Positions 5,977-38,901 of a stretch of DNA of 64,000 nucleotides are shown piece by piece. The DNA is taken from the NCBI GenBank assembly GCA_013362315.1, contig JABFWL010000227.1, forward strand, positions 6,037 through 70,036, written 5' to 3'. Origin of the DNA: Catenulispora sp. (GTDB lineage: Bacteria > Actinomycetota > Actinomycetes > Streptomycetales > Catenulisporaceae). The position numbers and the translations under genes are program-made. The stretch's first letter is position 1. Each line of letters begins with the position of its first letter. The notes under the pieces were generated by a model. The model saw only the letters and a list, made by a program, of their open reading frames with translations, searched no databases and was not told the origin of the DNA.

Positions 5977-6030
5977 GTGTCAGGGAGGGGGCCACAAGGG
6001 CCACCCCAAGACGAAAAGGAGACACCCGTC

Positions 6031-21322: not shown

Positions 21323-22597
21323 TTAGTGGCCGCTCGTCGCGGTCGGCGCGCTTACGTCCGGCGGAGGCCGGGACAACCAGGTGCGAAGGACGAGGCACGC
21401 CAGCCCGGTGACCAGGCCGACAACCGCCCCGGCGATCCACAACAGCGACGTGCCGCCGACTGCGATCAGCGCCGAGGCGACCAGCGGTGCGACCACGGCC
21501 GCGCTGCCCTGTGTGGAGCCCCAGCTGCCGAAGTAGCTGCCGCGCGCGTGCGCCGGAGCGAGGCCCGCGACGACGCCGGGTGCGACGGTGAGGAACAGCA
21601 CCTCTCCGCCGACCCAGATTGGCGTGGTCGCGGCGAACCACAACACGCTGTGGCCCATGCCCGTGATGGCCAGGCCAACACCGGTGATCGCAACGCCGAA
21701 AGCGCAGACCAGCAGCGCCGACGTGCGGGTGATCCAATGCTGGAGAAGCAGCTGCACCAGGGCCACAGCGAGCGGGTCGAGCGCCAGGATCGCCCCGAAC
21801 GCCAACGGCGACGCCCCCGCCTGGTTGATGACCAGCGGCAGCGTGACGACCGACTGCATGTGGACCAGATAGAACAGGCCGGTGATGACCGTGAACGCGA
21901 TCAGCCGCCGGTCGGCCATCGCCCGCAGCCGTCCAGGTTGACGCTGCGCCTGCGCAGTACTCGGGCCGCTGGGGAACGCGCGCCATACGGTCGCCGCGAA
22001 CCCGAGGTTGATCACAGCGTTGAGCAGGAACAGCGACCAGAAGGCGTGATCGGCGAGGAGCCCACCCAGCAGGCATGCCACTCCCCTGCCGACGTTCATG
22101 ACCAGGTAGAGCAGTGCAAGCGCCCGGCTCTGGTCGCTGCCACGCACGCTGTCGGTCATCAGGGCCTGGACGGCGGGCCGGTACAGGTCGAAGCTGAGCC
22201 CGACCAGTACCGCGGTGACCGCCAGCGTGCCGAAGGTGTGCGCCGCCCCGTACGCGAGGGCCGCGCCGGCCGACACGACGGCGCTGGCGATGATGACCGT
22301 GCGGCGGCCGAGGCGGTCGGCCAGGACTCCGCCGATCGGCTGCGAGACGGCCCAGCCGATACCGAACGCGGTCATCACGAGTGCGGCGGCGGTGCTACTC
22401 AGGTGCCTTTCGTGCGCCAGGTAGAACGCCCGGAATGGGATCACGACGAAGCCGATCCGCATGAACCCGACGCCGGCGAACAGTACCCAGAAGGAGCGCG
22501 GCAGCCCGCCGAAACGCCGGGCCAGCCAGCCGGAGGTTATCGGCTGCGCTGCTGGCTGCGGCACAGGCGGATGGTCGCGCCGGATGAGGGTTGTCAC
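21323..22597 (-). CDS. MFS transporter
   Basis: GGVLADRLGRR motif A; about 12 TM helices; GTGA overlap. Confidence 0.9.
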   Translation of the reverse strand: MTTLIRRDHPPVPQPAAQPITSGWLARRFGGLPRSFWVLFAGVGFMRIGFVVIPFRAFYLAHERHLSSTAAALVMTAFGIGWAVSQPIGGVLADRLGRRTVIIASAVVSAGAALAYGAAHTFGTLAVTAVLVGLSFDLYRPAVQALMTDSVRGSDQSRALALLYLVMNVGRGVACLLGGLLADHAFWSLFLLNAVINLGFAATVWRAFPSGPSTAQAQRQPGRLRAMADRRLIAFTVITGLFYLVHMQSVVTLPLVINQAGASPLAFGAILALDPLAVALVQLLLQHWITRTSALLVCAFGVAITGVGLAITGMGHSVLWFAATTPIWVGGEVLFLTVAPGVVAGLAPAHARGSYFGSWGSTQGSAAVVAPLVASALIAVGGTSLLWIAGAVVGLVTGLACLVLRTWLSRPPPDVSAPTATSGH

Positions 22598-23880
22598 CGG
22601 GCACCGGCCAGCTGCGGCTCGTCGACGCGGACTCGGTAGCGTTCGGCCGCGTCGTGCATCATGCCGAGGACCTGGCCGACGCTGTCGCCTTCCAGGTAGG
22701 TGTACCCCGCGAGGCCGCCCCACAGGCCACTGCCGGTACGGCCGCCCTGCTGACCGACCTTGACCGCCACAGTGGCGTCGATGACGCCAGGGTGCCCGAG
22801 CAACGCCTGCCGGTCCGCGATCGCCGTCACGATCCCGGCCGGGACCGCTGGCCCCGTCCAGCCCACGACCGGATGCGGCGCGCGGGTCGTCAGCTGCACA
22901 TCTGGCGTCTGGCCACAGGCGACCTGCGCCTGAATCGCGGGGACGTCGACGCCGTACGCGTGACCGATGGCCTGCTGGATGCCGCCGCCTCCCGGCCGGT
23001 ACGCGATCTCGCCGAGCAGCCAGCGGCCGCCCGCGGTGCGCAGGACCTCAGCGTGGGTGAAGCCGGTCATGATGCCCAGCGTCTTGGCTGCCCGGGTCGC
23101 CAGGTCGGAGACGATCCGGCTGTCGTGCGATCCGGTCGGCAACAGCACCGAGCCCAGCATTCCGCCCATGCCGCGCAGCGGCGGTGTGTGGTAGAGGCCC
23201 GGCAGCTGGTAGACCGGCTCGCCGTCGATCCACAGCCCGTCGCAGTGGTACTCGTGGACGATGTCGACGTACTCCTCCACGAGGATTCGCCCCTGGCGCG
23301 CCAACCCCACAAACGCGGGATCACCGGCGTAGTACGGGCTGGCGTCGAGGGGGATCTCGAACCGTCCGGCCGTCTGCGCGTCGGCGAGCTCGTCCGGCGA
23401 CCTGATCACGTGTGTGTTGGTCGACGCGAAGCCTCGCAGGGGCTTGACCACGATCGGCCAGCCGAGCTCGTCTGCCGCCGCGGCGACGTCGGGTACGTGC
23501 CGCACGATCCGGTGCTGGGCGACTGGCACGCCGCCCTGGTGCAGCCGGCTCTTCATGACGGCCTTGTCGACGTACCCGACCGCCTCATGCATCGTCTGGC
23601 CGGGCAGGTCGAGCAGATCACGGACGAACGCCGCCGGCACGATCGCGCCCTCCCAGCGGGTCGCCACGTGCTCGATCTGCCCGCGCAGGGAGGCGGCGAC
23701 GGCGGCGATCTCCGACCAGGCGTCCCAGTGGTTGATCGTCACGACTCGGTACGGCAGCTGCTCGGCCGGGCCGCGCAGCCGCGCGTGCGGCTCGGTCATG
23801 CACACGATCGCCTCCTGACCAGCGGCGATCAGACCGTTTTCGATTTGCGGCATGTGATTGGCGAACACGAGTGTGGCCAT
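22594..23880 (-). CDS. ATP-grasp amino acid ligase
   Basis: DKAVMK, WPIVVKP..G.AS, LVEEY, HAE and EIAYRPGG motifs; AAGGAGG RBS. Confidence 0.85.
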   Translation of the reverse strand: MATLVFANHMPQIENGLIAAGQEAIVCMTEPHARLRGPAEQLPYRVVTINHWDAWSEIAAVAASLRGQIEHVATRWEGAIVPAAFVRDLLDLPGQTMHEAVGYVDKAVMKSRLHQGGVPVAQHRIVRHVPDVAAAADELGWPIVVKPLRGFASTNTHVIRSPDELADAQTAGRFEIPLDASPYYAGDPAFVGLARQGRILVEEYVDIVHEYHCDGLWIDGEPVYQLPGLYHTPPLRGMGGMLGSVLLPTGSHDSRIVSDLATRAAKTLGIMTGFTHAEVLRTAGGRWLLGEIAYRPGGGGIQQAIGHAYGVDVPAIQAQVACGQTPDVQLTTRAPHPVVGWTGPAVPAGIVTAIADRQALLGHPGVIDATVAVKVGQQGGRTGSGLWGGLAGYTYLEGDSVGQVLGMMHDAAERYRVRVDEPQLAGAR

Positions 23881-24045
23881 GGCCGCTCCCTCCTTATTGG
23901 ACACAAGAAGAGACCGGCAGGCGGCCGGCCCCAGCCGAGCGACCCTGATCGCCAGGGTTCGGCGTACGCGGAGCGCGCGTCGGCCGGGCCGGGGGCTCGG
24001 TGCGCGGCTGCTTGTCGGGCTGGCCGGTGGTCGGCTTGATGAGGT

Positions 24046-27628: not shown

Positions 27629-28003
27629 CTACAGGTTGTCCGGCTTGATCTCGCCGGAGACGATGCGGTTGATGATCTCCTGAACCCCCTTGAGGTCCTC
27701 GGGGTCCAGGCGCGAGGCGCGGAACGCGATCGCAGCCACTTCGGCTGGCTGCGAGCAGGCGAATCCGGCCACTGACGGTGGGATGAGGTAAGCAGGGTCG
27801 ACGTTGAAAAACTCGGCGATCCGTACGAGGACCTTGACATGCGGGTCGTCGGCCTTGCCCGTGGCGATGGCGTGGATATGGCCGTGGGTCGAGCCGGTGG
27901 CCGCGCCGATTTCGCGGTAGGTGTAGCGGCTGCCGTCTGGTTTGCGGCGGCTGTCGATGAGGTGTTGAAGCCTGCTGGCCAGGGTCGAGCTGTCGTCAGT
28001 CAT
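27629..28003 (-). CDS. XRE-family HTH regulator
   Basis: LASRL..L...YTYREI...IAEFFNVDPAYL. Confidence 0.8.
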   Translation of the reverse strand: MTDDSSTLASRLQHLIDSRRKPDGSRYTYREIGAATGSTHGHIHAIATGKADDPHVKVLVRIAEFFNVDPAYLIPPSVAGFACSQPAEVAAIAFRASRLDPEDLKGVQEIINRIVSGEIKPDNL

Positions 28004-28180
28004 ACATGTCCTTGAGCAGGAGTTCCGGGTTGCGCAGGGGGTGTATTCCTGATTAGACAGGAACGCGGATTTGTCTTCTGGGCTTGACACGTAACTGGTG
28101 GATCACTCTATGCTTGCGGCTCCGGTAGATCAACCCCGTTGAGTGTCAGCGTCCGGGGCAAGTCCGGTGGAGGTTGGTGT

Positions 28181-29237: not shown

Positions 29238-29810
29238 CTACTGATCGCCCGGCTGGCTGTACACCGTCTCGTCGAGCATCCGCTGGCGTCGCTCCGCCAC
29301 CTCGGCCCGCGACGCGATAGGACTCCGCGCGGCCTCATACATGAACGTCTCAACCATCATCGCGAAGTTGTCCCAGCTACCTTCCAGCTCGAACTTCGCG
29401 TAGAGGAGCGCCCATAACTGAGGAGACAGCCGGATCGTGACCATCTCCTTGCTCTCTGTCCACGGAGGAAGGGCGCGCGGCAACCTCTCGGCCAGCGCCT
29501 CCTCCAGCGTTGGCGGAAGGCCCGCCGCGGCGATGTCCGCAGGATCGCTGGTTTGGTACTGGCGGCTCAGAGCGGCGGCCTTCCGCCGCCGGAGAACGCC
29601 CAGCGCCTCCTCATCGGTGACTGGCTCCGTGCGGTCCGGCTCGGCCAGTAGCGGAGCGTTTTCCCCGGGCAGCGCGTGGGAGGGGTCGACCTGGACGAGA
29701 TACCGTGGGTCGGCTGACACGTTGTAGCCAGGGCGGATTTGAACCTTGCGTCGCGCTCTACGCTCCGGCCGCGGATCGCTGTAGGTTCGGCCCGTTTCGT
29801 ACTCAGCCAC
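29238..29810 (-). CDS. Hypothetical protein with possible RHH-like C-terminus
   Basis: MVTIRLSPQLW segment. Confidence 0.55.
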   Translation of the reverse strand: MAEYETGRTYSDPRPERRARRKVQIRPGYNVSADPRYLVQVDPSHALPGENAPLLAEPDRTEPVTDEEALGVLRRRKAAALSRQYQTSDPADIAAAGLPPTLEEALAERLPRALPPWTESKEMVTIRLSPQLWALLYAKFELEGSWDNFAMMVETFMYEAARSPIASRAEVAERRQRMLDETVYSQPGDQ

Positions 29811-29942
29811 CGTGAAAACCCCAAATCGCCTCTGCCGCCTCGGCCAACTGTATAGCGCTTTGGAACATGGTAGGGGCCTCCACAGGATGAAGAGAAGTTC
29901 ACGTAGGCCAGTTTTGGCTGTGCCCGAATGTCCAGTTCGGGG

Positions 29943-30266
29943 CTACCGACCTGTTCGGGTGAGGACCGCGCGAATGCGAAGTTCAACTGCCTCGGCCGTG
30001 TCCTCGTCAAGTACGGCGACGCGTTCAGTGAGCCGGCTGGGGACGGCATATCCGAGGCGCAGCGGTGTCACCCAGCCGTACCCGGGGATGGTGACAGCCA
30101 AGATCGTGTCGGGATGCTTGTCGGACGGGTAGATGGCCAGCGTGGGTACGGTGGGCGGGTTGTACGCCATGGCGTCATCGCTGGCAATGATCAGGTGGTA
30201 CCCAGGCAGGCTCGTTACTCCGCTTGCTGATTCGTACCGCCAGATCTCGCCCCAGTGGGGGGTCAT
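29943..30266 (-). CDS. PemK/MazF-like toxin
   Basis: WGEIW..LIIASD N-terminus and RL.ERVAVLD..(helix) C-terminus; coupled to the antitoxin. Confidence 0.6.
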   Translation of the reverse strand: MTPHWGEIWRYESASGVTSLPGYHLIIASDDAMAYNPPTVPTLAIYPSDKHPDTILAVTIPGYGWVTPLRLGYAVPSRLTERVAVLDEDTAEAVELRIRAVLTRTGR

Positions 30267-30583
30267 GCGGCCAGACCGGTCTCACGCTCGAGCAGGGCGC
30301 GCTCGGCTTCCTCTGCATCGGCCAGGTCCGCGGGCAGCCCCTCGAATCGGCGATGAAGATCGGCCATCGCCTCTTCCAACTGCTTCCTGCGCGCCCACAG
30401 CGCGAGCTCGACAACGTCGGCAGAGACGACGGCGGCCATCTGGCGGCCCCGGCGGGTAAGCCATGTGATCGACCCTTTGCCGTGCGCCGTGTTCTCGGCG
30501 AGGGTCGGGAGCTGTTCGCGAGCCTCGGAGATCGGTAGGGCTGCCGGCTCGTACGGCCGAGGTCTACGGAGCGGACTTGGCAT
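30263..30583 (-). CDS. Phd/YefM-family antitoxin
   Basis: ISEAREQLPTL...LTRRGRQMAAVVS. Confidence 0.8.
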   Translation of the reverse strand: MPSPLRRPRPYEPAALPISEAREQLPTLAENTAHGKGSITWLTRRGRQMAAVVSADVVELALWARRKQLEEAMADLHRRFEGLPADLADAEEAERALLERETGLAA

Positions 30584-30606
30584 GTACGAATCGTACGACT
30601 CGTACG
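30584..30606. promoter_or_regulatory. Probable TA operator: tandem (TC)GTACG(A) palindromes
   Basis: GTACGAATCGTACGACTCGTACG directly upstream of the antitoxin start. Confidence 0.55.
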
Positions 30607-30841
30607 GTAGTGATCGCCAGGTTCCTGCCGCGATCAACGACGCCTCCGCCGGCCGCATCCCGGTGCTCGTCGACACCGCGGCGTACGCGGCGCGCGCGGC
30701 CTACCCGAGCCGGACCTGACCGGCGCCGTCGCGGACCTTGCCGAAGCCGGGTTCATCGGAGGTCCGGCCCGCCGGCACCACAGACAGCGACCCAGCAGCC
30801 CGTTCCCCCGTGCGAGCTGCTGGGTCGCTTCACATCCCCGG

Positions 30842-31237
30842 TCAGAACAGCCGGTCGACCGCCTCGTGCGCCTCGGCGGCGGCCAGGACGTCGACGGCGG
30901 CCCCGAGCGGTTCGGCGCCGGCGACGACGGCCAGAAGCACGTCGACATGACACGGTTCGCCGTCGAGCGAGCACCAGCAGGCCACGTCGGCCCCGGCCAG
31001 CTCGGCGCGCGCGGCTGCCACGAGATCCGGCCGGTCGGCCAAGTCGCGGGCGTAGCCGAGCAGCGCCCCGGAGCGGCCGTGAACGGCCGGGCAGGCCCGG
31101 CACTGGCCGATGCGGTGCCTGTTGGCGTACCGGCTTGCGGGCAGGCCCGGCGCGGCCCGCCCGGCGTACACCGCACCGGCCGGCACCTGCCCGTGGTACA
31201 GGTCGCCGAGCACCTTTACCCGCCGCGCGCCGGTCAC
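30842..31237 (-). CDS. DUF4326-family protein
   Basis: AVYAGR..S.YAN and ELAG.DVACWC....CHVDVL motifs. Confidence 0.8.
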   Translation of the reverse strand: MTGARRVKVLGDLYHGQVPAGAVYAGRAAPGLPASRYANRHRIGQCRACPAVHGRSGALLGYARDLADRPDLVAAARAELAGADVACWCSLDGEPCHVDVLLAVVAGAEPLGAAVDVLAAAEAHEAVDRLF

Positions 31238-31512
31238 TGCGGCCGCCGGGCCACGCGTAGCAACAGCGGGCGCAACTTCGGCGTGGCCGCGTCGAGCGCC
31301 GCCTCCGGGCCGGACAGCAGTTGCGCGACGGTGATGCCGTAGTGGGCGGCGAGCTTGTCGCAGTCGTCGAGTGTCCACATAGAAGCACCGGACTGCTTGC
31401 GGGAGATCTGGCCCTGCGATAGGCGCAGCGTGCGGGCGAGGTCTTCCTGCCGCTCACGGCTGGCGGCCATGAGGACGTCGACGGTCTCGCGGAGGGTCTG
31501 AAGCGTCGTCAC
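31234..31512 (-). CDS. XRE-family HTH protein
   Basis: QEDLARTLRLSQGQISRK..W.LDD..LAAHYGI. Confidence 0.8.
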   Translation of the reverse strand: MTTLQTLRETVDVLMAASRERQEDLARTLRLSQGQISRKQSGASMWTLDDCDKLAAHYGITVAQLLSGPEAALDAATPKLRPLLLRVARRPQ

Positions 31513-31674
31513 TCAGCAAGTATGTACATCGTGCATGTTCGTATGCAATGGGTGCATCAGAGGTGTGCTGGGCAAGGGCTACGGTGCCGTCCCATGAGGA
31601 ATCCCACGGCGGACCGGCACGCTACGATCAGCGCCACATGGTGTGCGACTCCCCGCGGAGAGGCTGACAGCACC

Positions 31675-31917
31675 ATGTCCAAGAGCAGGCAGACCACACG
31701 TTCGGGACGTGCCAGACGAGCACGGCGTCTGCCGAGCGGATTCGGGACCGTCCGCGACGTCGTGACGTTCCTTGTCGGAGTGATCATCCTCGGCCAGCAG
31801 ACCTTCGTCGCCGAGCACGCGTCGTGGCCCCTCGTCGTCGTAGGCACTACCCTGCTCGGCGCACCGCTCGTCCTGCCCCGGCTGCCTGAGAAAGAATCTT
31901 GGGACAAGACTCCGTGA
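31675..31917 (+). CDS. Small 2-TM membrane protein
   Basis: Basic N-terminus, two hydrophobic segments; GGAGAGG RBS. Confidence 0.55.
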   Translation: MSKSRQTTRSGRARRARRLPSGFGTVRDVVTFLVGVIILGQQTFVAEHASWPLVVVGTTLLGAPLVLPRLPEKESWDKTP

Positions 31918-31975
31918 CACAAGAGGCGTAGCGCGCCGCGAGACGTAAGCGGCCAGCCGGATCGATGATCCGTCC

Positions 31976-32239
31976 ATGACGAACGACAAGGCCATTGAGC
32001 CAGCTCAGGACACCAGCGCCCAACCGTTGACCGGTGAGACCAAGAGCCTGACCGCCAGCGGTGCGCTGGATCTGATCGACCACGCGATCGGCGTCGTGCC
32101 GTGGGCCGCAGGTGCCGTAGCGGCAGGGAAGGTCGCGGTGGAGGCGATCCGCCAGAACGGCGAGACCCGTCGTACTGAGATCCACGAGCAGCACGAGACC
32201 CACCGGACTGAGATCCGCGCCCAGAGCGGGACGGAATAG
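31976..32239 (+). CDS. Small hypothetical protein (ETRRTEI/ETHRTEI internal repeat)
   Basis: ORF with plausible codon usage. Confidence 0.55.
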   Translation: MTNDKAIEPAQDTSAQPLTGETKSLTASGALDLIDHAIGVVPWAAGAVAAGKVAVEAIRQNGETRRTEIHEQHETHRTEIRAQSGTE

Positions 32240-32346
32240 GTCCCGACCCCGGCGACCGCTCGCGCCGATAGCAGGGCGATGGCCCGCGAGCGTGACGAGA
32301 GATTGCACGCTGCGGGCCGTCTGGCACGGTAGCGGGTGGATACGAC

Positions 32347-32378
32347 GAAGGGCGGCCCCGGGGCGGGGGCCGCCCTTC
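32347..32378. terminator. Terminator hairpin between convergent genes
   Basis: GAAGGGCGGCCCC...GGGGCCGCCCTTC. Confidence 0.65.
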
Positions 32379-32391
32379 TGGTTCCACAGAA

Positions 32392-33849
32392 TCAGACGCG
32401 TTCGACGTGGATGGCGATGACGCCGAGGGCTTCCTTCTCGGCCGGGTAGATCAGCCGGATGTTGGCCAGCTGCTCGGCCCGGCTGGCGGTCGGGTTCACC
32501 GAGGAGACGTTCTCGTGGTCGAACATCTCGTCGAACGTGGCGTAGTGGCCGATCTTGGTGATGCGGGTCAGGCATTCCTCGCCGCGGCAGGTGAACTTCA
32601 GCAGCTGGCCGGGGGCCAGGCGCTTGTTGGATGGGTACGCGACGCGGACCTCAACGGTCTTCTTGCCGGAGGCGATGAGGTCGAAGTAGCGCTTGTAGAT
32701 GGGCATCTCGCGGGCCCTCGGCCGGGTCGCGAGGTCGGCCGGCCGTTGGGCCATGAGAACTCCCAGTTCGCTGGTGGTGAAGGATCGGAAGAAGTGCTTC
32801 GGGTCGGCGAGCAGCCCGGACACGAGCCACAGCAGCGCGTCGACGTACTGGTCGACGGTGCCGTCCCAACTGGTCGTGGCCAGCATCCAGTCCTCGATCC
32901 CGGTATGCGCCGGGCTGTCCGGGGCCGCGCGCAGCAGGGACTTGGACAGCTTCGCGCCGGATCCGGACAGGACCATCGGGGTGAAGATCCGGGCGGGCAT
33001 GTCCTGCGCCGGTGTGCCGAGCGCGAGGAGAGCGCCGTCGACGAGCTGGGCGCCGAAGGACCAGTCGCCGCCTTTGACCATGACGTAGAGCACGTCGCGT
33101 TCGCGTACGAGGGCGCGTTCCTTGATGACGTTGCGGTACAGGGTGGCGAGGTCGAGGTAGCCGCCGTCGACGGGGTCGATGACCATCTCGTAGTCGCCGT
33201 GCTCATAGCAGACGGCGGTGAAGATCGCCCCGTCGTCGTCGACGCGAACGAGGCGGGTCTGCTCGGCGCGTTTCTCGGCCCAGCCGCAGGCGGGGCAGGG
33301 CAGGCGGGTGTGGACAATGCCGGTCGAGGGGTTGAGCCACCAGCGGATCTGGTCGAAGCGCTCCAGGGAGCGCAGGAACTCGGTGCGGAACGCCGGGGTT
33401 TCCTGCTGCTCGGTGTAGGTGTCCAGCTCGTATTCGGTGTCGGTGGCGTCGGAGAGGCTGTTGAACAGCTCCCGGTAGTAGCGCTCGATCAGGTCGGTGA
33501 TGCCGTCCTTGCCGAGGGCGTGGAAGTAGGTGATCTGGTACGCCCGGTGCGTCTCCGGGTCGAGGGTCACCTCGTACGGGGCGTTGTCCAGCGCGCTGAA
33601 CCGCACCGTGGTGTCGACGGAGAACGCGCGGCGGGCGAGCTTGGCGAGCAGGAACGCCGAGGACTGGACGATGTTCGTGCCGAGGTGGGGTGCGCCGTTG
33701 ATCTGGGTGCCGACGACGAACACGATCCGCTTGGGCCGGTTGGCGATCACCTTCGGGCGGATCATGTCGATGGTGCGTAGCAGTGCGTTGGCGAGGACCG
33801 TGTTGGGTGAGAGCACCGCCGGCGGCTTATCGGGGGTGGTCGGTGGCAT
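32392..33849 (-). CDS. Class I lysyl-tRNA-synthetase-like catalytic (HUP) domain fused to a C-terminal ASCH domain
   Basis: HIGH-like GAPHLGT, CPAC...CYEH zinc motif, KGGDW and KMSKS-like KLSKS; ASCH signature YFDLIASGKKTVEVR. Confidence 0.8.
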   Translation of the reverse strand: MPPTTPDKPPAVLSPNTVLANALLRTIDMIRPKVIANRPKRIVFVVGTQINGAPHLGTNIVQSSAFLLAKLARRAFSVDTTVRFSALDNAPYEVTLDPETHRAYQITYFHALGKDGITDLIERYYRELFNSLSDATDTEYELDTYTEQQETPAFRTEFLRSLERFDQIRWWLNPSTGIVHTRLPCPACGWAEKRAEQTRLVRVDDDGAIFTAVCYEHGDYEMVIDPVDGGYLDLATLYRNVIKERALVRERDVLYVMVKGGDWSFGAQLVDGALLALGTPAQDMPARIFTPMVLSGSGAKLSKSLLRAAPDSPAHTGIEDWMLATTSWDGTVDQYVDALLWLVSGLLADPKHFFRSFTTSELGVLMAQRPADLATRPRAREMPIYKRYFDLIASGKKTVEVRVAYPSNKRLAPGQLLKFTCRGEECLTRITKIGHYATFDEMFDHENVSSVNPTASRAEQLANIRLIYPAEKEALGVIAIHVERV

Positions 33850-33851
33850 CG

Positions 33852-34430
33852 CTACTCCTCACGGCTCGGGCGGGGCAGGCGCAGATTGGCGCAGATGAAA
33901 TCGAGACGTTCTGTGGGGTCGTCGGCCGGGACGAAGATCGGGCTGTAGCCGGCGTCGTAGTAGCCCTGCACGATCAGTTCGTGCACTCGGCGGATCTCGC
34001 GGTCCTGCGCCCACACGACGTCGTGTTCGTCCTCGAACGTGTCGAGGGGGTCGAGGATCATGACGGCGTCGTAGCGGTAGCGCTGGTTGGCCTCCTCGAG
34101 TTCGGCGTACGGCTCCAGGCCGAAGAACCGGTCCCAGCCGTAGCCGTCGGGGATGCCGCGGTTGTAGAACCGCACGCCTTCTGTATGGGCCTGGAACTCG
34201 GCGACGAAGGCCTGCAGGACTTCGCGGGAGTAGTCGCGGCGGTCCTCGCGCAGCAGGTGCCGGCCGAGCCGGGCGCGGTGCGCCCGGTAGATCTCCCGGG
34301 CGGCTTCCTCGGTGGAGACCGGCATCCCGGCCCTGACGATGGCTTCCAGGACGGCTTCCTTGCCGGCCGAGGGGCCGCCGGTGATGACGAAGCGGCGGGC
34401 CGGGCCGGTGCGGATATCAGTGATGGTCAT
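33852..34430 (-). CDS. AAA_28 (NadR/Ttd14-like) P-loop NTPase with degenerate motifs
   Basis: RFVITGGPSAGKE, EAAREI, FYNRGIPD and RYDAV motifs; ATGA overlap. Confidence 0.8.
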   Translation of the reverse strand: MTITDIRTGPARRFVITGGPSAGKEAVLEAIVRAGMPVSTEEAAREIYRAHRARLGRHLLREDRRDYSREVLQAFVAEFQAHTEGVRFYNRGIPDGYGWDRFFGLEPYAELEEANQRYRYDAVMILDPLDTFEDEHDVVWAQDREIRRVHELIVQGYYDAGYSPIFVPADDPTERLDFICANLRLPRPSREE

Positions 34431-35335
34431 GATGCGTTGCTCCCGGTGCTGGTGGTGGTGAGGTACGGCGCGAACAGGTCTTCGACCCACTGGTCGCGTA
34501 CGCGCTGCCCGGCCGCGTCGGCGGTCAGGTCGTCGATGAAGGTGCGCAGCCGTTCGGCGTCCGGGCCGCGATGGCACACCAGGTCGAGGTCGTCGGGCGT
34601 AAGCTCCGGCGTCCATCCGGCCATCCCGACCAGGTGCTCCGGGGCGATGCCGCCGTGCAGCAGCCGGGCGCCGTACGCGCGCCGGTACGCCCGGATCTCC
34701 ACGTGTAGCTGCCCGAGCCGCCACAACGCGGCTTCGGCCGCGTCGACGTGTTCCCCGGAGCCGGGGTCCATCGACGACCAGCGGGCGCACGCGAGCAGTT
34801 CGGCGCGCAGCGCGTACACCGCCGCCCATAGACGGCTCAGCTGCTCCTCGTGCTCGACGGCTTCCCACGCGAACATGTCCGCAGGCAGCGGCATCGGGCG
34901 GGCGACCATCGGGATCAGCTGCGGCGGCGCGACGCGAGTATTGGCCATCCGCTCGCTGTCGGTGTCGAGGGCCTGGGCGAGCTGGGCGAGGATGCGCGGC
35001 TCGATGTGCTTGCGGAAATGGTCCGGGTGCACACCGAGGGCCATCGCCGCGCCTTCGCGGCGTTCGGTCAGTGAGTTGCCGATCGTGCCGGTCCAGGTGC
35101 CGAACAGGATCGCCGCTGCGAGCGAGGTCTGGTGGTCGGCGATGCGGTCGATCAGCTGACGCAGCAGGGTGTTGAAGGCTTCCACCCGGTTGATCCAGTC
35201 CGGCCCAGCGGCCCGGGCGGTCACGCCGGGCAACGCCAGCAGGCTCTCGCGGATCGCGGTCCCGGCGGGCAGGCCTTGACGTAGCAGCGCGCGGAGGTCT
35301 TCCGCGGTTGGGGTCGGGCTCTTGTTCGGGGTCAT
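34427..35335 (-). CDS. Putative DNA-binding protein (N-terminal HTH-like domain plus helical domain)
   Basis: LTERREGAAMALGVHPDHFRKHIEPRIL segment; first gene of the operon. Confidence 0.7.
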   Translation of the reverse strand: MTPNKSPTPTAEDLRALLRQGLPAGTAIRESLLALPGVTARAAGPDWINRVEAFNTLLRQLIDRIADHQTSLAAAILFGTWTGTIGNSLTERREGAAMALGVHPDHFRKHIEPRILAQLAQALDTDSERMANTRVAPPQLIPMVARPMPLPADMFAWEAVEHEEQLSRLWAAVYALRAELLACARWSSMDPGSGEHVDAAEAALWRLGQLHVEIRAYRRAYGARLLHGGIAPEHLVGMAGWTPELTPDDLDLVCHRGPDAERLRTFIDDLTADAAGQRVRDQWVEDLFAPYLTTTSTGSNAS

Positions 35336-35355
35336 GACATCAAGTCTGCCACCGA

Positions 35356-35397
35356 TACCCAGAAAATACCCAGTGACGTACCCAGAAAATACCCAGT
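35356..35397. repeat. 19-bp direct repeat TACCCAGAAAATACCCAGT x2 (four TACCCAG heptamers at 11-12 bp spacing)
   Basis: Copies at 35356-35374 and 35379-35397. Confidence 0.85.
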
Positions 35398-35423
35398 CGA
35401 AGGAAACGAGCCAGGCGGCGAAG

Positions 35424-35560
35424 GTGTCCGAGAATCGAATGATTTCCGGACACGATCCACAACTGGCGATCGAGTGGAGCGTGCCTACCGAAACGTGTCC
35501 GAGAAAATGTCCAAAAACTACTGTGTCCGAGAATGATTGAGGGCAAGGTTTCTCGTACGC
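35424..35560. promoter_or_regulatory. Putative resolvase res site with three subsites
   Basis: GTGTCCGAGAA at 35424, 35495 and 35523, with inverted partners at 35443-35453 and 35550-35560. Confidence 0.7.
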
Positions 35561-35567
35561 TCAGGCG

Positions 35568-36575
35568 GTGACCGACACCCCCACCGCGTTGGTGCTCGCC
35601 CCCGATGACGCCCTGGAGCCGTTCCCGATCGCGGCCGGCGGTCTACTCATCGGCTACGGCCGCGTGTCGACCCGCGGCCAGAATCTCGACCGCCAGATCC
35701 GCGCACTCACCAAATGCGGCTGCGCGAAGATCTTCACTGACAAGCTGTCGGGCAAGAACACCGACCGGCCCGAGCTGATCGAATGCCTCAAGTACCTGCG
35801 TGAGGGTGACACTCTGGTCGTCCCGAGCCTCGACCGACTGGCCCGCTCACTGCAAGACCTGATCACGATCACCGTTGACCTTCGCAAGCGCGGCATCGGA
35901 TTCAAGAGCCTGCACGAAAACCTGGACACCACCACCTCCGGCGGCCGGCTCGTATTCCACGTCTTTGCCGCCCTCGCCGAGTTCATCCGGGAACTGATCA
36001 TCGAGAACACCCGCGAAGGCGTCGCCGCCGCCAAGGCTCGCGGCCAGCGGCTCGGCCGCCCGAAGGCCATGACCGAGGAACAGGTCAGCCACGCCGTCGC
36101 CCTGCTGTCCCAGCCCAAAGCCAGCGCGAAGGCCATCGCCGAGCTGCTCGGCGTCTCCCGCTCAACGCTGTACGCCTACGTTCCGGAGCTCGCCGCCATC
36201 CGGGCCGCCGCCGCGAAGCAGACCGCCGCTGAGGTGCCCGCCCAGCGCCCGGCCCTGACCCGCGAGCCGGAGGCGTGGTGGCAGCTCGCCGAGTTCACGC
36301 TGAACCACAGCGCCACGTACGGCTGGCAGCTCACCCACCAGCTCTACCCGGCCAATCCCGGCCACCCGATCCCCGTCGAGAACTACCCGGCTGGCAACAG
36401 CCGCCTGCGGCGCAACATCGTCGCGGCGCAGGCCGCCGCCGCGGCGGCAATTGAAGACCTCACCGGACACCGCGTCCAGGACTGGGAAGAAGAGGAGGAT
36501 GCCGCCGGCGAGCCCTACTGGGAGGCGTTCCTAGACGGCCCGCTCCACGAGCTCGCGCGCCGCGGAGGACACTGA
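35568..36575 (+). CDS. Serine resolvase/invertase with HTH and an extra C-terminal domain of about 125 aa
   Basis: GYGRVST..Q, LDRLARS, AEFIRELI..T.EG, GRP and HTH GVSRSTLY motifs. Confidence 0.93.
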   Translation: MTDTPTALVLAPDDALEPFPIAAGGLLIGYGRVSTRGQNLDRQIRALTKCGCAKIFTDKLSGKNTDRPELIECLKYLREGDTLVVPSLDRLARSLQDLITITVDLRKRGIGFKSLHENLDTTTSGGRLVFHVFAALAEFIRELIIENTREGVAAAKARGQRLGRPKAMTEEQVSHAVALLSQPKASAKAIAELLGVSRSTLYAYVPELAAIRAAAAKQTAAEVPAQRPALTREPEAWWQLAEFTLNHSATYGWQLTHQLYPANPGHPIPVENYPAGNSRLRRNIVAAQAAAAAAIEDLTGHRVQDWEEEEDAAGEPYWEAFLDGPLHELARRGGH

Positions 36576-36604
36576 CGGACCTGACGGACTACGTGTTCAA
36601 GTCC

Positions 36605-36750
36605 ACAACGCTCTCAGCTGCTCGCGAGTCACGCTCGCATGGGAGCGTGAAGCGAGCACAACAGCGCGATATGGGCACGCCTGACGCTGTAGGAGTGACA
36701 ACAGACGCATCACGCTGAGCGATAGGAACGCCTCGTTAGCGTCACAACAG
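36605..36750. repeat. Non-coding array of hairpins separated by ACAACAG
   Basis: ACAACAG at 36658, 36698 and 36744 (ACAACG at 36605); CACGC-containing stems in between; region free of long ORFs. Confidence 0.5.
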
Positions 36751-36953
36751 CACAAAGAGACGACCTCGACGTGCTACCGCGCGTTTAAACGCACACTGCA
36801 TGACAAGTGGATACGGTTGATGCGCTACAGTCACGCAAGAGTCGGTTAAGTCAACTAGACACCACGACGCGAAGAAGCCCCCGTCCCGACCGGACAAGCC
36901 AGAGACGAGGGCCCTTCACCACGTAGCCTCACCTGGCGAACAGCCTGGTGGGG

Positions 36954-37067
36954 CTACATCCCTTTGAGGGTGCGTACGAGGTCCGTCAGAGACCAGATGA
37001 TCTGTAGCTTGACGACTAGCGTCACGAGCACCACTAGATCACCGGGTTCGTCCTTCTTCCGCTTCAC
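36954..37067 (-). CDS. 37-aa hydrophobic peptide MKRKKDEPGDLVVLVTLVVKLQIIWSLTDLVRTLKGM (type I toxin-like)
   Basis: Strong SD AAGGAGGTG (37074-37082), GTG start, TM-like core, two hairpins after the stop; below the ORF-track size cut-off. Confidence 0.6.
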   Translation of the reverse strand: MKRKKDEPGDLVVLVTLVVKLQIIWSLTDLVRTLKGM

Positions 37068-37493: not shown

Positions 37494-37539
37494 CTAGTTA
37501 AGTCAGACTTGACAACGTGGTTAAGTCTGACTTAACTAG
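37494..37539 (+). promoter_or_regulatory. 17-bp perfect inverted-repeat operator overlapping a TTGACA-17-TTAACT promoter; probably leaderless mRNA
   Basis: CTAGTTAAGTCAGACTT-n12-AAGTCTGACTTAACTAG; ATG at 37544 begins 7 nt after the -10. Confidence 0.75.
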
Positions 37540-37543
37540 TGCC

Positions 37544-38365
37544 ATGGATACATTCGCCATGCTCATTCCGGCTGACGACGTCGCGCGCATCAAAGACGAG
37601 CGCCTTGACGCATACGAGATCGACGGCTGCGCGTTCTGGCTGAACTGGAGCCAAGAATGGACCAGCCCTTCCCGCTACCAGGCCGACGTATCGGACGTCC
37701 ACAAGGGACTGTGTGTCGGCGTCACGAGCCTGCGCGGAGTGGTCAGCCAGGAGCCGCATGAGCACGGCCAGTGGACGTTGACCACCAGCTACTACAGCAA
37801 CGGAACGTGGGTCCAGCGGCCCACTCGCGTCGACGGCGTACGCCCAGACGACCTGGCCGAAGTCCTCGGCCTCATCCTCGACACCTTTCGGGCGTCGCGC
37901 CTTCGCCAGCAAGCCGCGAGACTGCACCGCGGCCGCATGCTCCAGGCCCTCACCGCCGCCGCCGACGCCTACGACACCGCCGCAGCTGGGAACGCCAAGT
38001 GGACCGCCGGGCAGACCCGCGATCGCGTCATTGAACAGGCGATCGAGCAAGACCTACTCGACGACGACGAGATCCAGGAAGCCGCCCGGGTCACCGAGCT
38101 GACCGTGAGGAACATCAACAACCAGGTGAGCCGGGGCGCGCGCCGGGCGCCGCTGTACGGCGACCTGCCGATGTTCGCCGCCCGCCATGGCCTCAAGCCG
38201 GCCAGCCTGCACGTCTACCGCAGTCGTGGCAAGGATGCGCTGCCGCCGGAAGACCTGTCGCTCAGCGGCACTCCTGGCTGGCTCGTCGACACCATCGAAG
38301 CGTGGAAGCCGGCTCGGGGACCGCGTACGCGTCAGGCCCGGCAGACGAGCGAATCTCCGTCATGA
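37544..38365 (+). CDS. Protein with C-terminal AlpA/Xis-like winged HTH
   Basis: FAARHGLKPASLHVYRSRG..LPPED....TPGWLVDTIEAW. Confidence 0.7.
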   Translation: MDTFAMLIPADDVARIKDERLDAYEIDGCAFWLNWSQEWTSPSRYQADVSDVHKGLCVGVTSLRGVVSQEPHEHGQWTLTTSYYSNGTWVQRPTRVDGVRPDDLAEVLGLILDTFRASRLRQQAARLHRGRMLQALTAAADAYDTAAAGNAKWTAGQTRDRVIEQAIEQDLLDDDEIQEAARVTELTVRNINNQVSRGARRAPLYGDLPMFAARHGLKPASLHVYRSRGKDALPPEDLSLSGTPGWLVDTIEAWKPARGPRTRQARQTSESPS

Positions 38366-38901
38366 AGGTCATCCACCTGACCGAAGAGCACCCCGAGTAC
38401 GGCCGCTACGCGGCGATGCTCTGCGAGGAGCCGCTGCGGACGCAGTGGTGGATGGACGCCGAGTCCGGCCATGAAGAGGGCACCTCGTACCTGATGGTCC
38501 TCGACGTCGACGCCAGCGGCGCATATGTCCCGGCGGCGTGGGCCGGGTACGCCTTCGAGCGGCTGGACGAGACGGAGGCAATGTTTCAGGCACTCCCCCG
38601 CGAGATGCGAAAGCTTGCCCGGCTGCCGATCCTGCGCTGCCGGGACAACTACGTGGCGCATGGCTTCCGCGACCGCGACCCCGAGCGGTACGAGACCGCG
38701 TACGCCGCGCGCCATCAGCTGGTCGTTTCGCCCTGGCAGGGTCTGGCCTATACCTATCTCTATGACCCGCCGAAGACCCGCCACGAGCGCGACGGCTGGT
38801 TTGCTGATCCCAACTCCGACCTCGGTCACGGCTTTTCCAGCCCGGACGCCACCAGCGGCATCGTCCATGAGTGGTGGCGGCTATTCCGCTGCGGTATATG
38901 A
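38362..38901 (+). CDS. Hypothetical protein, possibly a distant GNAT fold
   Basis: ATGA overlap; YVAHGFR and HERDGW resemble GNAT motifs A and B. Confidence 0.6.
   Translation: MKVIHLTEEHPEYGRYAAMLCEEPLRTQWWMDAESGHEEGTSYLMVLDVDASGAYVPAAWAGYAFERLDETEAMFQALPREMRKLARLPILRCRDNYVAHGFRDRDPERYETAYAARHQLVVSPWQGLAYTYLYDPPKTRHERDGWFADPNSDLGHGFSSPDATSGIVHEWWRLFRCGI

What the first reader, a model, noticed from the sequence alone, without database searches (positions are those of the whole stretch)
32392..35397. Candidate new system: class I LysRS-like ligase fused to ASCH, with an AAA_28 partner and an HTH regulator
Seen: a three-gene operon (ATGA overlap and a 2-nt gap). The last protein retains HIGH-like (PHLGT), zinc-binding (CPAC..CYEH), KGGDW and KMSKS-like (KLSKS) motifs, but an ASCH domain replaces the anticodon-binding domain. 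Known: class I aaRS cores adenylate amino acids; ASCH/PUA-like domains bind or process RNA and modified nucleosides; AAA_28 proteins are nucleotide-kinase-like. Inference: a non-translational pathway that aminoacylates or modifies nucleotides or RNA. Its position on a mobile element next to a resolvase and TA genes suggests a defence or conflict role. I know of no characterised system with this architecture.
Basis: partly seen in the sequence, partly recalled or inferred. Interest (0 to 1): 0.82.

Follow-up and report, generated by a model that had tools for sequence, protein, structure and literature searches.

The report
Mobile LysRS-like ligase–ASCH operon
A self-contained three-gene operon that moves between soil actinomycetes encodes a cut-down relative of lysyl-tRNA synthetase fused to a cytidine-recognising ASCH domain, with its own P-loop partner and a self-regulated promoter; no function is known, and it most likely joins an acid to a cytidine-type acceptor, not to the 3' end of a tRNA.

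Summary
Three translationally coupled minus-strand genes (34427-35335, 33852-34430, 32392-33849) encode an all-helical protein with no known family, an AAA_28 P-loop protein, and a 485-aa fusion.

- **Conserved motifs:** the HIGH-like, zinc, GGDW and KLSKS motifs and the ASCH G-K-E-R residues are conserved across the family.
- **Not the housekeeping enzyme:** the genome has its own class II LysRS.
- **Conservation of the trio:** same order in 79 of 79 testable loci from about 146 actinomycete species. Flanks are unrelated, and copies sit on plasmids. Phages carry a split ligase+ASCH form.

New here:
- A conserved heptad operator lies over a leaderless promoter, which supports gene 1 as an autoregulator.
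- The AAA_28 protein has a deviant Walker A (GK[D/E]).

Best reading (0.45): an ATP-dependent acyl or aminoacyl ligase acting on a cytidine-type acceptor, either a nucleotide or a tRNA base.

A defence role is neither supported nor excluded: PADLOC gave no hit and the neighbours show no enrichment.

This scan has reported the same family, and this same trio, before on other DNA. I found no published characterisation.

The parts
35356..35397 (-). Operator. Two perfect 19-nt direct repeats (ACTGGGTATTTTCTGGGTA on the minus strand), which make four CTGGGTA heptads in 11/12-nt phase.
   Evidence: D20: 35356-35374 and 35379-35397, 100% identical. The strict motif TGGG[CT][AT][ACT]T[TC][TCA][CGT]TGGG occurs twice in the 64-kb window, both times here. 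It lies within -200..+40 of the gene-1 start in 66 of 79 related loci and nowhere in the remaining 958,799 bp of those loci.
35333..35355 (-). Promoter-proximal stretch: a -10-like hexamer CAGACT (35348-35343), then 7 nt, then the ATG of gene 1 (35335-35333). A leaderless transcript is inferred.
   Evidence: In 53 of 66 related loci the layout is operator, 7-9 nt, NNNACT (TTCACT x29, TTGACT x10), 6 nt (46 of 53), then ATG/GTG. No experimental transcription start site is available.
34427..35335 (-). Gene 1: a 302-aa all-helical protein of no known family. It is the fastest-evolving member of the trio and the candidate autoregulator.
   Evidence: no Pfam family in 32 members. AF2 model: pLDDT 86.5, all alpha. 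No PDB fold match. It is 35-62% identical across loci in which the ligase is 57-91% identical. Conserved helix-turn-helix-like stretch at residues 89-113 (R92, A97, H106, F107, R108 invariant).
33852..34430 (-). Gene 2: a 192-aa AAA_28 P-loop protein with a deviant Walker A, GGPSAGKE (family consensus GGPS[AS]GK[DE]).
   Evidence: PF13521, E 3.5e-23, 83 bits. Conservation. All listed homologues (best 120 of 333) are AAA_28 proteins of about the same length from actinomycetes or unnamed metagenomes; their contexts were not checked. ATGA overlap with gene 1.
32716..33849 (-). Gene 3, residues 1-378: class I LysRS-like catalytic core. It comprises a Rossmann/HUP fold, a zinc knuckle (CPAC...CYEH), KLSKS and an SC-fold helical region.
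32392..32715 (-). Gene 3, residues 379-485 plus the stop codon: ASCH domain of the G-K-E-R octapeptide type (GKKTVEVR; G395, K397, E400, R402).
32350..32375 (-). GC-rich hairpin 17 nt after the ligase stop codon: GGGCGGCCCC / CGCCCC / GGGGCCGCCC. Probable end of the operon.
   Evidence: Read. DNA similarity to the closest related locus (L008) ends at 32346. The consensus terminator scan did not call it because there is no T-run.

Best explanation
This is an autonomous, horizontally mobile three-gene operon of actinomycetes. Its enzyme is a non-translational ligase derived from class I lysyl-tRNA synthetase.

Proposed mechanism:
1. The catalytic core binds ATP through PHLGT and KLSKS.
2. It activates a carboxylic acid, most likely an amino acid, as an acyl-adenylate.
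3. It transfers the acyl group to a cytidine-type acceptor held by the fused ASCH domain, which sits where the anticodon-binding domain used to be.

The acceptor group would be the N4 amine of cytosine or a ribose hydroxyl. It could belong to a free nucleoside or nucleotide (slightly favoured) or to a cytidine in a tRNA loop. The chemistry parallels GluQRS (amino acid onto a tRNA base) and TmcAL (acyl-adenylate onto cytidine N4).

The ASCH domain keeps its catalytic Lys/Glu pair, so it may also hydrolyse or proofread the N4-acyl product.

The AAA_28 partner binds a nucleotide or phosphorylates the nucleoside. This resembles NadR, which combines a regulator, an AAA_28 kinase and a HUP-fold adenylyltransferase.

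The gene 1 product represses the operon's own leaderless promoter by binding the CTGGG(C/T)A heptad repeats.

Shown: the fold, the conserved motifs, the domain swap, the strict three-gene linkage, the mobility, the conserved operator, and the separate housekeeping LysRS.

Inferred: the substrate, the acceptor, the activity of the AAA_28 protein, which protein binds the operator, and the cellular role.
For: Fold:
- Foldseek finds 1irx at E 4.8e-8, followed by many GluRS chains and GluQRS (1nzj, 4a91).
- The family profile aligns the HIGH and KMSKS regions with GluRS (E 0.0026) and also reaches 1irx (E 0.22).
- The nearest named Atlas clusters are short PF01921 proteins (score 0.95).

Catalytic residues:
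- They are kept over 45 sequences down to 22% identity and in 32 close homologues.

ASCH domain:
- It matches Pfam, PDB sequences and folds.
- The octapeptide G395, K397, E400, R402 is invariant. GKER-type ASCH proteins hydrolyse N4-acetylcytidine both free and in tRNA, and the Lys and Glu are essential (preprint 10.64898/2026.02.27.708502).

Not the housekeeping enzyme:
- A class II LysRS is present and the genome has no PF01921 hit.

Linkage and mobility:
- The trio has the same order in 79 of 79 loci.
- The flanks are unrelated.
- Copies lie on plasmids.
- Same-genus genomes carry only about 59%-identical copies, whereas genomes of other actinomycete families and orders reach 71-91%.
- The ligase+ASCH core recurs split in Streptomyces phages and linear plasmids.

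Operator and leaderless promoter.

Other members of the ligase family sit in small-molecule-type clusters or are fused to AdoMet_dc. This shows that the core is reused with different C-terminal or partner modules.
Against: - No substrate, product or acceptor has been observed. The chemistry is argued from domain identity alone.
- The N-terminal domain does not reach any Pfam threshold. LysRS ancestry therefore rests on fold, weak profile hits and language-model features.
- The Walker A of the AAA_28 partner lacks the usual Ser/Thr, so it may not be a kinase at all.
- ASCH domains can be mere binding modules.
- The class I aaRS relatives closest to LysRS (GluRS, GlnRS, ArgRS, LysRS-I) normally need tRNA to activate the amino acid (established knowledge). 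The SC-fold region is retained. Both points favour an RNA acceptor over a free nucleotide.
- Nothing shows that gene 1 binds DNA.
Confidence: 0.45

Rival explanations
1. Anti-phage or inter-element conflict system. On a trigger, the ligase and the P-loop protein make a toxic or signalling aminoacyl or acyl nucleotide, or modify a tRNA. This stops phage or host growth. Gene 1 keeps the operon off. It concerns the role and is compatible with the chemistry proposed above.
For: - The cassette is mobile, patchy and self-contained.
- It sits on a conjugative element next to a resolvase.
- The split ligase+ASCH pair lies in the integrase-proximal 'moron' position of the temperate phages Picard and Mojorita.
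- One linear plasmid has a PycTM effector-family gene (PF18967, E 1.6e-15) 325 bp upstream of the pair.
- A type ISP restriction enzyme lies beside another copy.
- Gene 1 diverges much faster than the enzymes.
Against: - None of the three proteins hit PADLOC.
- Of 72 immediate neighbours in 36 loci, only scattered ones are defence-type (one pPIWI_RE, generic WYL/HTH) and no family recurs.
- The PycTM neighbour is a single lineage. The other split copies have unrelated upstream genes.
- The enzymes are unusually well conserved for a defence gene (57-91% identity across actinomycete families and orders).
Confidence: 0.15
2. Resistance or detoxification cassette against a cytosine-nucleoside or aminoacyl-nucleotide antibiotic made by other actinomycetes (amicetin-, blasticidin- or gougerotin-like compounds, or microcin-C-like compounds). 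ASCH would cleave an N-acyl bond. The P-loop protein and the ligase would modify the drug. Gene 1 would be a drug-responsive repressor.
For: - Fused-trio relatives found in the species-genome scan come only from Actinomycetota, spread horizontally and often on plasmids.
- The layout is an autoregulated operon, as in many resistance cassettes.
- ASCH enzymes hydrolyse N4-acyl cytosine compounds (preprint 10.64898/2026.02.27.708502).
- P-loop small-molecule kinases are known antibiotic-resistance enzymes (established knowledge).
Against: - No biosynthetic cluster or exporter recurs next to the trio.
- Resistance rarely needs an ATP-dependent ligase with intact aaRS motifs.
- The split pair also occurs in phages.
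Confidence: 0.12
3. A genuine but non-canonical tRNA 3'-end aminoacylating enzyme. ASCH would replace the anticodon-binding domain as a new tRNA-recognition module. The element would then charge, or mischarge, a particular tRNA.
For: - The full catalytic core, the zinc knuckle in the CP insertion and the SC-fold region are retained. The model aligns to 1irx residues 3-361.
- Depositors of the phage records called the split genes 'tRNA synthetase' and 'RNA-binding protein'.
- ASCH proteins can act on tRNA.
Against: - ASCH pockets bind a single modified cytidine, not an anticodon (YqfB-ac4C structure listed).
- The dedicated P-loop partner has no role in this scheme.
- Known truncated class I paralogues (GluQRS, MshC, BshC) have all left 3'-end charging (established knowledge).
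Confidence: 0.1
4. It is the cell's ordinary lysyl-tRNA synthetase, or a decaying copy of one.
For: 1irx is the best structural match.
Against: - The genome encodes a class II LysRS above the NCBIfam cut-off.
- There is no anticodon-binding domain.
- No PF01921 hit was found.
- The gene is absent from most relatives.
- It is strongly conserved together with two dedicated partners, so it is not decaying.
Confidence: 0.01

Closest known systems
Class I lysyl-tRNA synthetase (LysK; P. horikoshii 1IRX; Pfam PF01921)
   Same: - HIGH-type and KMSKS-type motifs.
- Nearest named clusters by language-model features.
   Different: - 10-13% identity, and no PF01921 hit.
- The helical anticodon-binding domain is replaced by ASCH.
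- It is not the housekeeping enzyme.
- It is linked to an AAA_28 gene and to an unknown helical protein.
GluQRS/YadB (glutamyl-queuosine tRNA-Asp synthetase)
   Same: - A class Ib synthetase core stripped of its anticodon-binding domain that puts an amino acid on a modified base in the anticodon loop, not on the 3' end (established knowledge).
- Present among the Foldseek matches (1nzj at E 2.5e-5; 4a91).
   Different: - GluQRS has no added domain and no partners, and it is chromosomal and vertically inherited.
- Here a base-recognising ASCH domain is fused, and the gene is part of a mobile trio.
- 1irx matches better than the GluRS-type cores.
TmcAL (tRNA-Met cytidine acetate ligase, B. subtilis)
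   Same: By its published description, a HUP-fold enzyme that makes an acyl-adenylate and transfers the acyl group to N4 of a tRNA cytidine. It is named as the acetate-dependent ac4C writer in preprint 10.64898/2026.02.27.708502. The mechanistic details are from my own knowledge of Taniguchi et al. 2018. This is the reaction that ASCH enzymes reverse.
   Different: - It is a different family and did not appear in the listed fold matches.
- It uses acetate, has no ASCH fusion and is not mobile.
MshC and BshC (cysteine ligases of mycothiol and bacillithiol synthesis)
   Different: - They are CysRS-derived housekeeping enzymes.
- They have no nucleobase-binding domain and no kinase-like partner.
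YqfB-type and GKER-type ASCH N4-acylcytidine amidohydrolases
   Same: - Same G-x-K-x-x-E-x-R octapeptide, invariant in the family.
   Different: Those are stand-alone proteins of about 110 aa, or are fused to HTH domains. Here the domain is fused to the C-terminus of an adenylating ligase.
NadR (HTH regulator + NMN adenylyltransferase + AAA_28 ribosylnicotinamide kinase)
   Same: The same three kinds of part in one functional unit: a regulator, an AAA_28 P-loop domain and a HUP-fold ATP-using enzyme that acts on a nucleoside or nucleotide (established knowledge; AAA_28 hit).
   Different: - Here they are separate genes.
- The HUP enzyme is aaRS-type, not a nucleotidyltransferase.
- The Walker A is deviant.
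- The regulator shows no homology to known HTH families.

Membership tests
Class I lysyl-tRNA synthetase (PF01921) | HIGH-type and KMSKS-type ATP-binding motifs in a Rossmann/HUP fold | tested here: met
   PHLGT (54-58) and KLSKS (300-304) are conserved. Fold matches.
Class I lysyl-tRNA synthetase (PF01921) | Sequence match to the family model above its gathering score | tested here: not met
   No PF01921 hit for P0001 at E<=1. A distant homologue, P0266, scores 13.1 bits against a cut-off of 27. The genome search with PF01921 found nothing.
Class I lysyl-tRNA synthetase (PF01921) | C-terminal helical anticodon-binding domain | tested here: not met
   Residues 379-485 are an ASCH beta-barrel. 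The alignment to 1irx stops at chain residue 361.
Class I lysyl-tRNA synthetase (PF01921) | Charges tRNA-Lys and is the cell's LysRS | not testable with these tools
   The activity cannot be tested here. The genome does have a class II LysRS (TIGR00499, 489 bits against a cut-off of 427.6).
ASCH domain (PF04266) | Family model above its cut-off and the PUA-like beta-barrel fold | tested here: met
   [not shown]
ASCH N4-acylcytidine amidohydrolases | Octapeptide G-x-K-x-x-[T/E]-x-R with the catalytic Lys and Thr/Glu | tested here: met
   GKKTVEVR. G395, K397, E400 and R402 are invariant in 32 sequences. The motif definition comes from the preprint read.
ASCH N4-acylcytidine amidohydrolases | Hydrolysis of N4-acetylcytidine | not testable with these tools
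   This needs an enzyme assay.
AAA_28 P-loop kinases/ATPases (PF13521) | Family model above its cut-off | tested here: met
   83 bits against 27, covering model positions 1-164 of 164.
AAA_28 P-loop kinases/ATPases (PF13521) | Canonical Walker A, GxxxxGK[S/T] | tested here: not met
   The sequence is GGPS[AS]GK[D/E] in all 80 sequences compared.
Truncated class I aaRS paralogues with non-3'-end acceptors (GluQRS, MshC, BshC) | Orthology to one of these families | tested here: inconclusive
   All appear as fold matches but below 1irx. No sequence-level hit was found. The protein works like them by inference, but it is not filed as a member.
Helix-turn-helix transcription regulators (for gene 1) | Match to a known HTH family or fold | tested here: inconclusive
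   No Pfam HTH hit in 32 members. No PDB match. Only a weak Atlas row to sigma-70 region 4 (TM 0.24/0.35).
Helix-turn-helix transcription regulators (for gene 1) | A specific operator at its own promoter | tested here: met
   A heptad-pair motif lies upstream of gene 1 in 66 of 79 loci and nowhere else in 959 kb. Its spacing to the -10-like hexamer and the start codon is fixed. Which protein binds it has not been shown.
Known anti-phage defence systems (PADLOC-DB 2.0) | Any component matches a defence-system model | tested here: not met
   No families for P0001, P0002 or P0003 at E<=0.1.
Pycsar | Pyrimidine cyclase plus a cNMP-dependent effector | tested here: not met
   A PycTM-family gene lies near the split pair in one plasmid lineage only. 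No cyclase was seen, and the trio has no such gene.

The most novel reading that the evidence does not exclude
The trio is an undescribed nucleotide- or tRNA-targeting conflict module. A LysRS-derived ligase would write an amino acid onto cytidine, giving an N4-aminoacyl-cytidine in a nucleotide pool or in a tRNA anticodon loop. The fused ASCH domain would read or erase the mark, and a deviant P-loop protein would gate the reaction. That would make a new, reversible nucleic-acid or nucleotide modification used by mobile elements and phages of actinomycetes.
Probability: 0.15. Interest if true: 0.88.

Novelty: new variant of a known kind. Interest (0 to 1): 0.68.

Why it matters
Truncated aminoacyl-tRNA synthetase paralogues have repeatedly turned out to be new chemistry: GluQRS, MshC, BshC, cyclodipeptide synthases and TmcAL. 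This one has four features that make it stand out.

- It is widespread. The word-indexed search found 701 protein clusters, about 146 actinomycete species carry it, and phages and plasmids carry a split form.
- It is strongly conserved.
- It has a dedicated partner and a regulator.
- It is physically fused to the only known eraser fold for N4-acylcytidine.

If the ligase acylates cytidine, this would be a writer and eraser in a single polypeptide, and a new amino acid-nucleobase conjugate. It would bear on tRNA biology, on nucleoside-antibiotic chemistry, or on phage-host conflict.

The work is directly testable with standard assays. The conserved operator and leaderless promoter also give a ready handle on regulation.

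Tried and rejected
- **Complex prediction.** P0001 with P0002 (complex prediction, own alignments): no verdict. Scores were 0.30 and 0.26 against a mark of 0.32. This says nothing either way.
- **Sequencing runs.** Only soil-metagenome DNA holders were listed, probably the source samples. No RNA holder was listed, so the operon's expression and the leaderless start could not be checked.
- **Rfam.** A scan of 31000-37000 at E<=1 found nothing.
- **Promoter and terminator scan.** The consensus scan found nothing in 32100-35600. The promoter and the hairpin were instead read from cross-locus conservation and directly from the sequence.
- **Homology searches.** NCBIfam gave nothing meaningful for the three proteins. 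phmmer against PDB found nothing for the ligase core or for P0002.
- **Fold of gene 1.**
  - Foldseek against PDB gave only noise (best E 0.29).
  - Atlas rows were unnamed actinomycete proteins, plus weak sigma-70 r4, Macro-associated and KilB rows.
  - No fold could be assigned.
- **Search for a fourth conserved gene.** Clustering of flanking ORFs found no family in more than 6 of 80 loci. The Pfam tally of 72 nearest neighbours peaked at 3 members (NUDIX, HTH_31).
- **PycTM lead.** The upstream genes of the split pairs in phage Picard and four plasmids are mostly unrelated to each other. The Pycsar-effector neighbour was therefore set aside as a single case.
- **TA genes.** The ORFs at 27629-28090, 29238-31917 and 37517-38901 showed only XRE/BetR-type HTH hits or nothing.
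- **Literature.** Three searches on the architecture (ASCH with aminoacyl-tRNA synthetase; ASCH with AAA_28; class I LysRS with paralog) found no description of it.

Full report
**What is there**

Three genes lie on the minus strand and are translationally coupled.
- Gene 1 (34427-35335, 302 aa) ends inside the ATGA that starts gene 2 (33852-34430, 192 aa).
- Gene 2 ends TAG, followed by 2 nt and the ATG of gene 3 (32392-33849, 485 aa). A GAGGAG Shine-Dalgarno precedes that ATG.
- Pfam finds ASCH at 384-483 of gene 3 (40.5 bits, cut-off 21.2) and AAA_28 over all of gene 2 (83 bits).
- Pfam finds nothing for gene 1 or for residues 1-378 of gene 3. NCBIfam and PADLOC add nothing.

**The ligase domain**

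An AlphaFold2 model built on 32 homologues has pLDDT 76.9 and pTM 0.78.
- Foldseek's best match is class I LysRS 1irx (E 4.8e-8). A long series of GluRS chains, GluQRS, ArgRS, MetRS, CysRS and BshC follows.
- A profile of 45 family members, used against PDB sequences, aligns its HIGH and KMSKS regions with GluRS (E 0.0026) and also reaches 1irx (E 0.22).
- A distant member scores weakly on PF01921.
- The nearest named ESM-Atlas clusters are short PF01921 proteins (score 0.95, 197 shared features).
- Across 45 sequences down to 22% identity the invariant columns are P54, H55, G57, D262, W263, P291, G298, K300 and K303. C185, C188, C214 and H217 are kept in at least 90%. The ATP site and the zinc knuckle are therefore under selection.

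It holds as fold and ancestry, though, not as Pfam membership.

**The ASCH domain**

The ASCH octapeptide reads GKKTVEVR. G395, K397, E400 and R402 are invariant in the family. A 2026 preprint reports that 'GKER'-type ASCH proteins hydrolyse N4-acetylcytidine both as a free nucleoside and in tRNA, and that the Lys and Glu are essential (10.64898/2026.02.27.708502). The domain therefore looks catalytically competent, not vestigial.

**Not the housekeeping enzyme**

The genome is a soil-metagenome assembly of 7.97 Mb, 82% complete. It contains a class II LysRS above the NCBIfam cut-off (489 bits against 427.6) and no PF01921 match. P0001 is single-copy.

**Conservation of the trio**
- The word-indexed search found 701 clusters, the best 120 nearly all about 485 aa, and those with names called 'ASCH domain-containing protein'.
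- A scan of one genome per species found relatives in 146 species, all Actinomycetota.
- In the 80 loci fetched, tblastn finds gene 1, gene 2 and gene 3 in the same order and orientation in 79 of the 79 that have enough upstream DNA. Identities to the window are 35-62%, 63-87% and 57-91% respectively.
- Three further genomes looked up individually show the same layout.
- One locus (L063) has about 2.4 kb inserted into the ligase gene.
- Nothing else is conserved. Clustering of flanking ORFs gives no family in more than 6 of 80 loci. The 72 nearest neighbours in 36 loci hit 85 different Pfam families, none more than three times.
- DNA similarity to the closest loci starts about 60 bp upstream of gene 1 (35395/35396). 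It ends at the ligase stop codon, or 46 bp beyond it (32346), just past a GC-rich hairpin at 32350-32375.

The unit of inheritance is therefore promoter plus three genes.

**Mobility**
- The window carries a TrwC relaxase-helicase (8578-12486) and a serine resolvase divergent from the operon (35568-36575).
- Copies lie on Kutzneria, Prauserella, Amycolatopsis and Streptomyces plasmids. One Actinomadura contig holds two copies.
- Within the window's own genus 8 of 12 genomes have a copy, but at only about 59% identity. Genomes of other actinomycete families and orders reach 71-91%. The window's copy was therefore acquired horizontally.

**A conserved operator and a leaderless promoter (new here)**

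Upstream of gene 1 lie two perfect 19-nt repeats (35356-35374 and 35379-35397). Together they make four CTGGGTA heptads in 11/12-nt phase.
- A strict version of a heptad pair occurs only at these two places in the 64-kb window.
- It lies within -200..+40 of the gene-1 start in 66 of 79 loci, and nowhere in the remaining 958,799 bp of those loci on either strand.
- In 53 of those 66 loci the layout is fixed: operator, 7-9 nt (often containing TG), NNNACT (TTCACT 29 times, TTGACT 10 times), 6 nt (46 of 53), then ATG/GTG. This is the geometry of an extended -10 promoter giving a leaderless mRNA.
- In about 35 loci, mostly Pseudonocardiaceae, an inverted copy of the operator forms the first 19 nt of the ORF (ATGCCCAGAAAAAGCCCAG). 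The two sites then bracket the -10 element.
- Other loci have tandem copies, not a palindrome. That argues for a DNA operator and against an RNA hairpin.

Gene 1 is the only candidate binder in the unit.
- It is all-helical (pLDDT 86.5).
- It has a conserved helix-turn-helix-like stretch at residues 89-113.
- It has no family and no convincing fold match.

**The P-loop partner**

P0002 matches AAA_28 end to end. Its Walker A, however, is GGPS[AS]GK[D/E] in all 80 sequences compared, with an acidic residue where Ser/Thr normally binds Mg2+. Other conserved blocks (FYNRGIPDGYGW, LDPLDTFE, DREIRRVHELIVQGYYDAGY) indicate a real ligand site.

All listed homologues (the best 120 of 333 found) are AAA_28 proteins of about the same length from actinomycetes or unnamed metagenomes; their genomic contexts were not checked. 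Kinase activity is therefore an open question.

The complex prediction with the ligase gave no verdict. I do not use it.

**The wider family**
- The exhaustive representative search with residues 1-378 found 341 clusters. Many are stand-alone proteins of 355-375 aa at 25-50% identity.
- Two that I looked up sit in a different conserved cluster: AlaDh_PNT-type dehydrogenase, methyltransferase, unknown protein, ligase, unknown protein, AdoMet_dc and AlkZ-like. It lies on elements that also carry TrwB-like, RadC and Dam-type methyltransferase (MethyltransfD12) genes.
- One member is fused to AdoMet_dc at the position where the window's protein carries ASCH.
- Streptomyces phages Picard and Mojorita and several Streptomyces linear plasmids carry the ligase and ASCH as two overlapping genes (48-52% identity), without gene 1 or the AAA_28 gene. 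In the phages the pair sits between the lysis genes and the integrase.
- Their upstream genes vary: an anti-sigma-like HATPase_c_2 protein, a PycTM-family protein in one plasmid lineage, or unrelated small proteins.

The invariant core is ligase plus ASCH. The actinomycete trio is one elaboration of it.

**How it most likely works**

The conserved ATP site indicates adenylate formation from a carboxylate. This is the only chemistry known for this fold class with HIGH and KMSKS motifs.

The domain that replaced the anticodon binder is one whose characterised members hold a single N4-acylated cytidine in a catalytic pocket. The simplest reading is that the acceptor, or the product to be checked, is a cytidine-type base. 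Two precedents support this:
- GluQRS is a class Ib core without an anticodon domain that aminoacylates a modified base in the anticodon loop.
- TmcAL makes an acyl-adenylate and transfers the acyl group to N4 of C34.

MshC and BshC show that such cores also work on small molecules.

An AAA_28 partner together with a regulator recalls NadR, in which an AAA_28 nucleoside kinase, a HUP-fold enzyme and an HTH act on one nucleoside. That tilts me slightly towards a nucleoside or nucleotide acceptor. The retained SC-fold, and the tRNA dependence of amino-acid activation in the Glu/Gln/Arg/Lys-I group, tilt the other way.

I put 0.45 on 'acyl or aminoacyl ligase acting on a cytidine-type acceptor'. 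Within that, I judge a free nucleotide roughly as likely as a tRNA base.

**Role**

- PADLOC gave no hit.
- The neighbours show no enrichment for defence genes.
- The enzymes are unusually conserved for a defence gene.

Points in its favour are the mobility, the moron position in temperate phages, the fast-evolving gene 1, and isolated neighbours such as PycTM, a type ISP restriction enzyme and pPIWI_RE. A resistance cassette against cytosine-nucleoside antibiotics is a fair alternative for a module confined to actinomycetes.

**Novelty**

Three literature searches on the architecture found no description of it.

This scan has met the family repeatedly on other genomes. The same three-gene cassette was reported once (e1-4346799) and the fused protein once (e1-4346800). 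This report is therefore a re-discovery within the scan.

It adds the following:
- the operator and leaderless-promoter architecture;
- the deviant Walker A;
- the 79 of 79 linkage count;
- the intact GKER motif;
- the housekeeping-LysRS control;
- the neighbour statistics.

I class it as a new variant of a known kind (non-canonical aaRS paralogues). The function is unknown.

Noticed in passing
L006:2066-7594 and L007:2041-7569 (also L004:1244-6321): Distant stand-alone relatives of the ligase (about 26% identity) sit in a different conserved cluster: AlaDh_PNT-type dehydrogenase, methyltransferase, a 239-aa unknown, the ligase, a 164-aa unknown, a small AdoMet_dc and an AlkZ-like winged-helix DNA glycosylase. 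L006 also carries TrwB-like, RadC and Dam-type methyltransferase (MethyltransfD12) genes downstream. This may be a small-molecule (genotoxin?) or DNA-modification pathway.
   Followed up: partly
L004:1244-2713 (protein P0266): One family member is fused at its C-terminus to an S-adenosylmethionine-decarboxylase domain (PF02675, E 8.4e-19), at the position where the window's protein carries ASCH. The ligase core is evidently a module that takes different C-terminal partners.
   Followed up: partly
window 35421-35533: Three copies of a 14-nt repeat (AAGGTGTCCGAGAA and variants; TTCTCGGACAC on the minus strand) lie between the operon's operator and the divergent resolvase gene. They may be resolvase res subsites or the resolvase promoter.
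   Followed up: no
L063:3533-6001: In one actinomycete MAG the ligase gene is interrupted. The AAA_28 gene ends at 3533, and the match to the ligase resumes at residue 149 at position 6001, so about 2.4 kb has been inserted.
   Followed up: no
protein P0445: A 316-aa protein on a 2-kb Logan contig carries both AAA_28 and ASCH Pfam domains. It may be a deletion of the ligase core that fuses gene 2 to the ASCH domain, or an assembly artefact.
   Followed up: no
L089:4776-5670 (Streptomyces koelreuteriae linear plasmid): An RRQRL-motif zinc-binding protein (NF041638, E 6.6e-39) and a PycTM Pycsar-effector-family membrane protein (PF18967, E 1.6e-15) lie just upstream of the split ligase+ASCH pair. 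No pyrimidine cyclase is annotated nearby.
   Followed up: partly
L088:4936-5852 (Streptomyces phage Picard gp26-gp27): In the phage, the split ligase+ASCH pair is preceded by an anti-sigma-factor-like HATPase_c_2 protein (PF13581, E 4.8e-12) and a 160-aa unknown. A homologous HATPase_c_2 gene precedes the pair on a Streptomyces plasmid (L092:3352-3813).
   Followed up: partly
window 8578-12486 and 21323-23904: A TrwC relaxase fused to an AAA_30 helicase marks the window as part of a conjugative element. An ATP-grasp ligase (22594-23904) next to an MFS transporter (21323-22723) forms a separate cargo module.
   Followed up: partly
window 37517-38901: Two ORFs that another first-stage note described as a wHTH plus GNAT-like pair gave no Pfam family at E<=0.01.
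   Followed up: partly
G019:C223:72486-72917 (same-genus genome): One relative keeps only the last 145 or so residues of the ligase-ASCH gene, with an in-frame TAG. It is a decayed copy.
   Followed up: no
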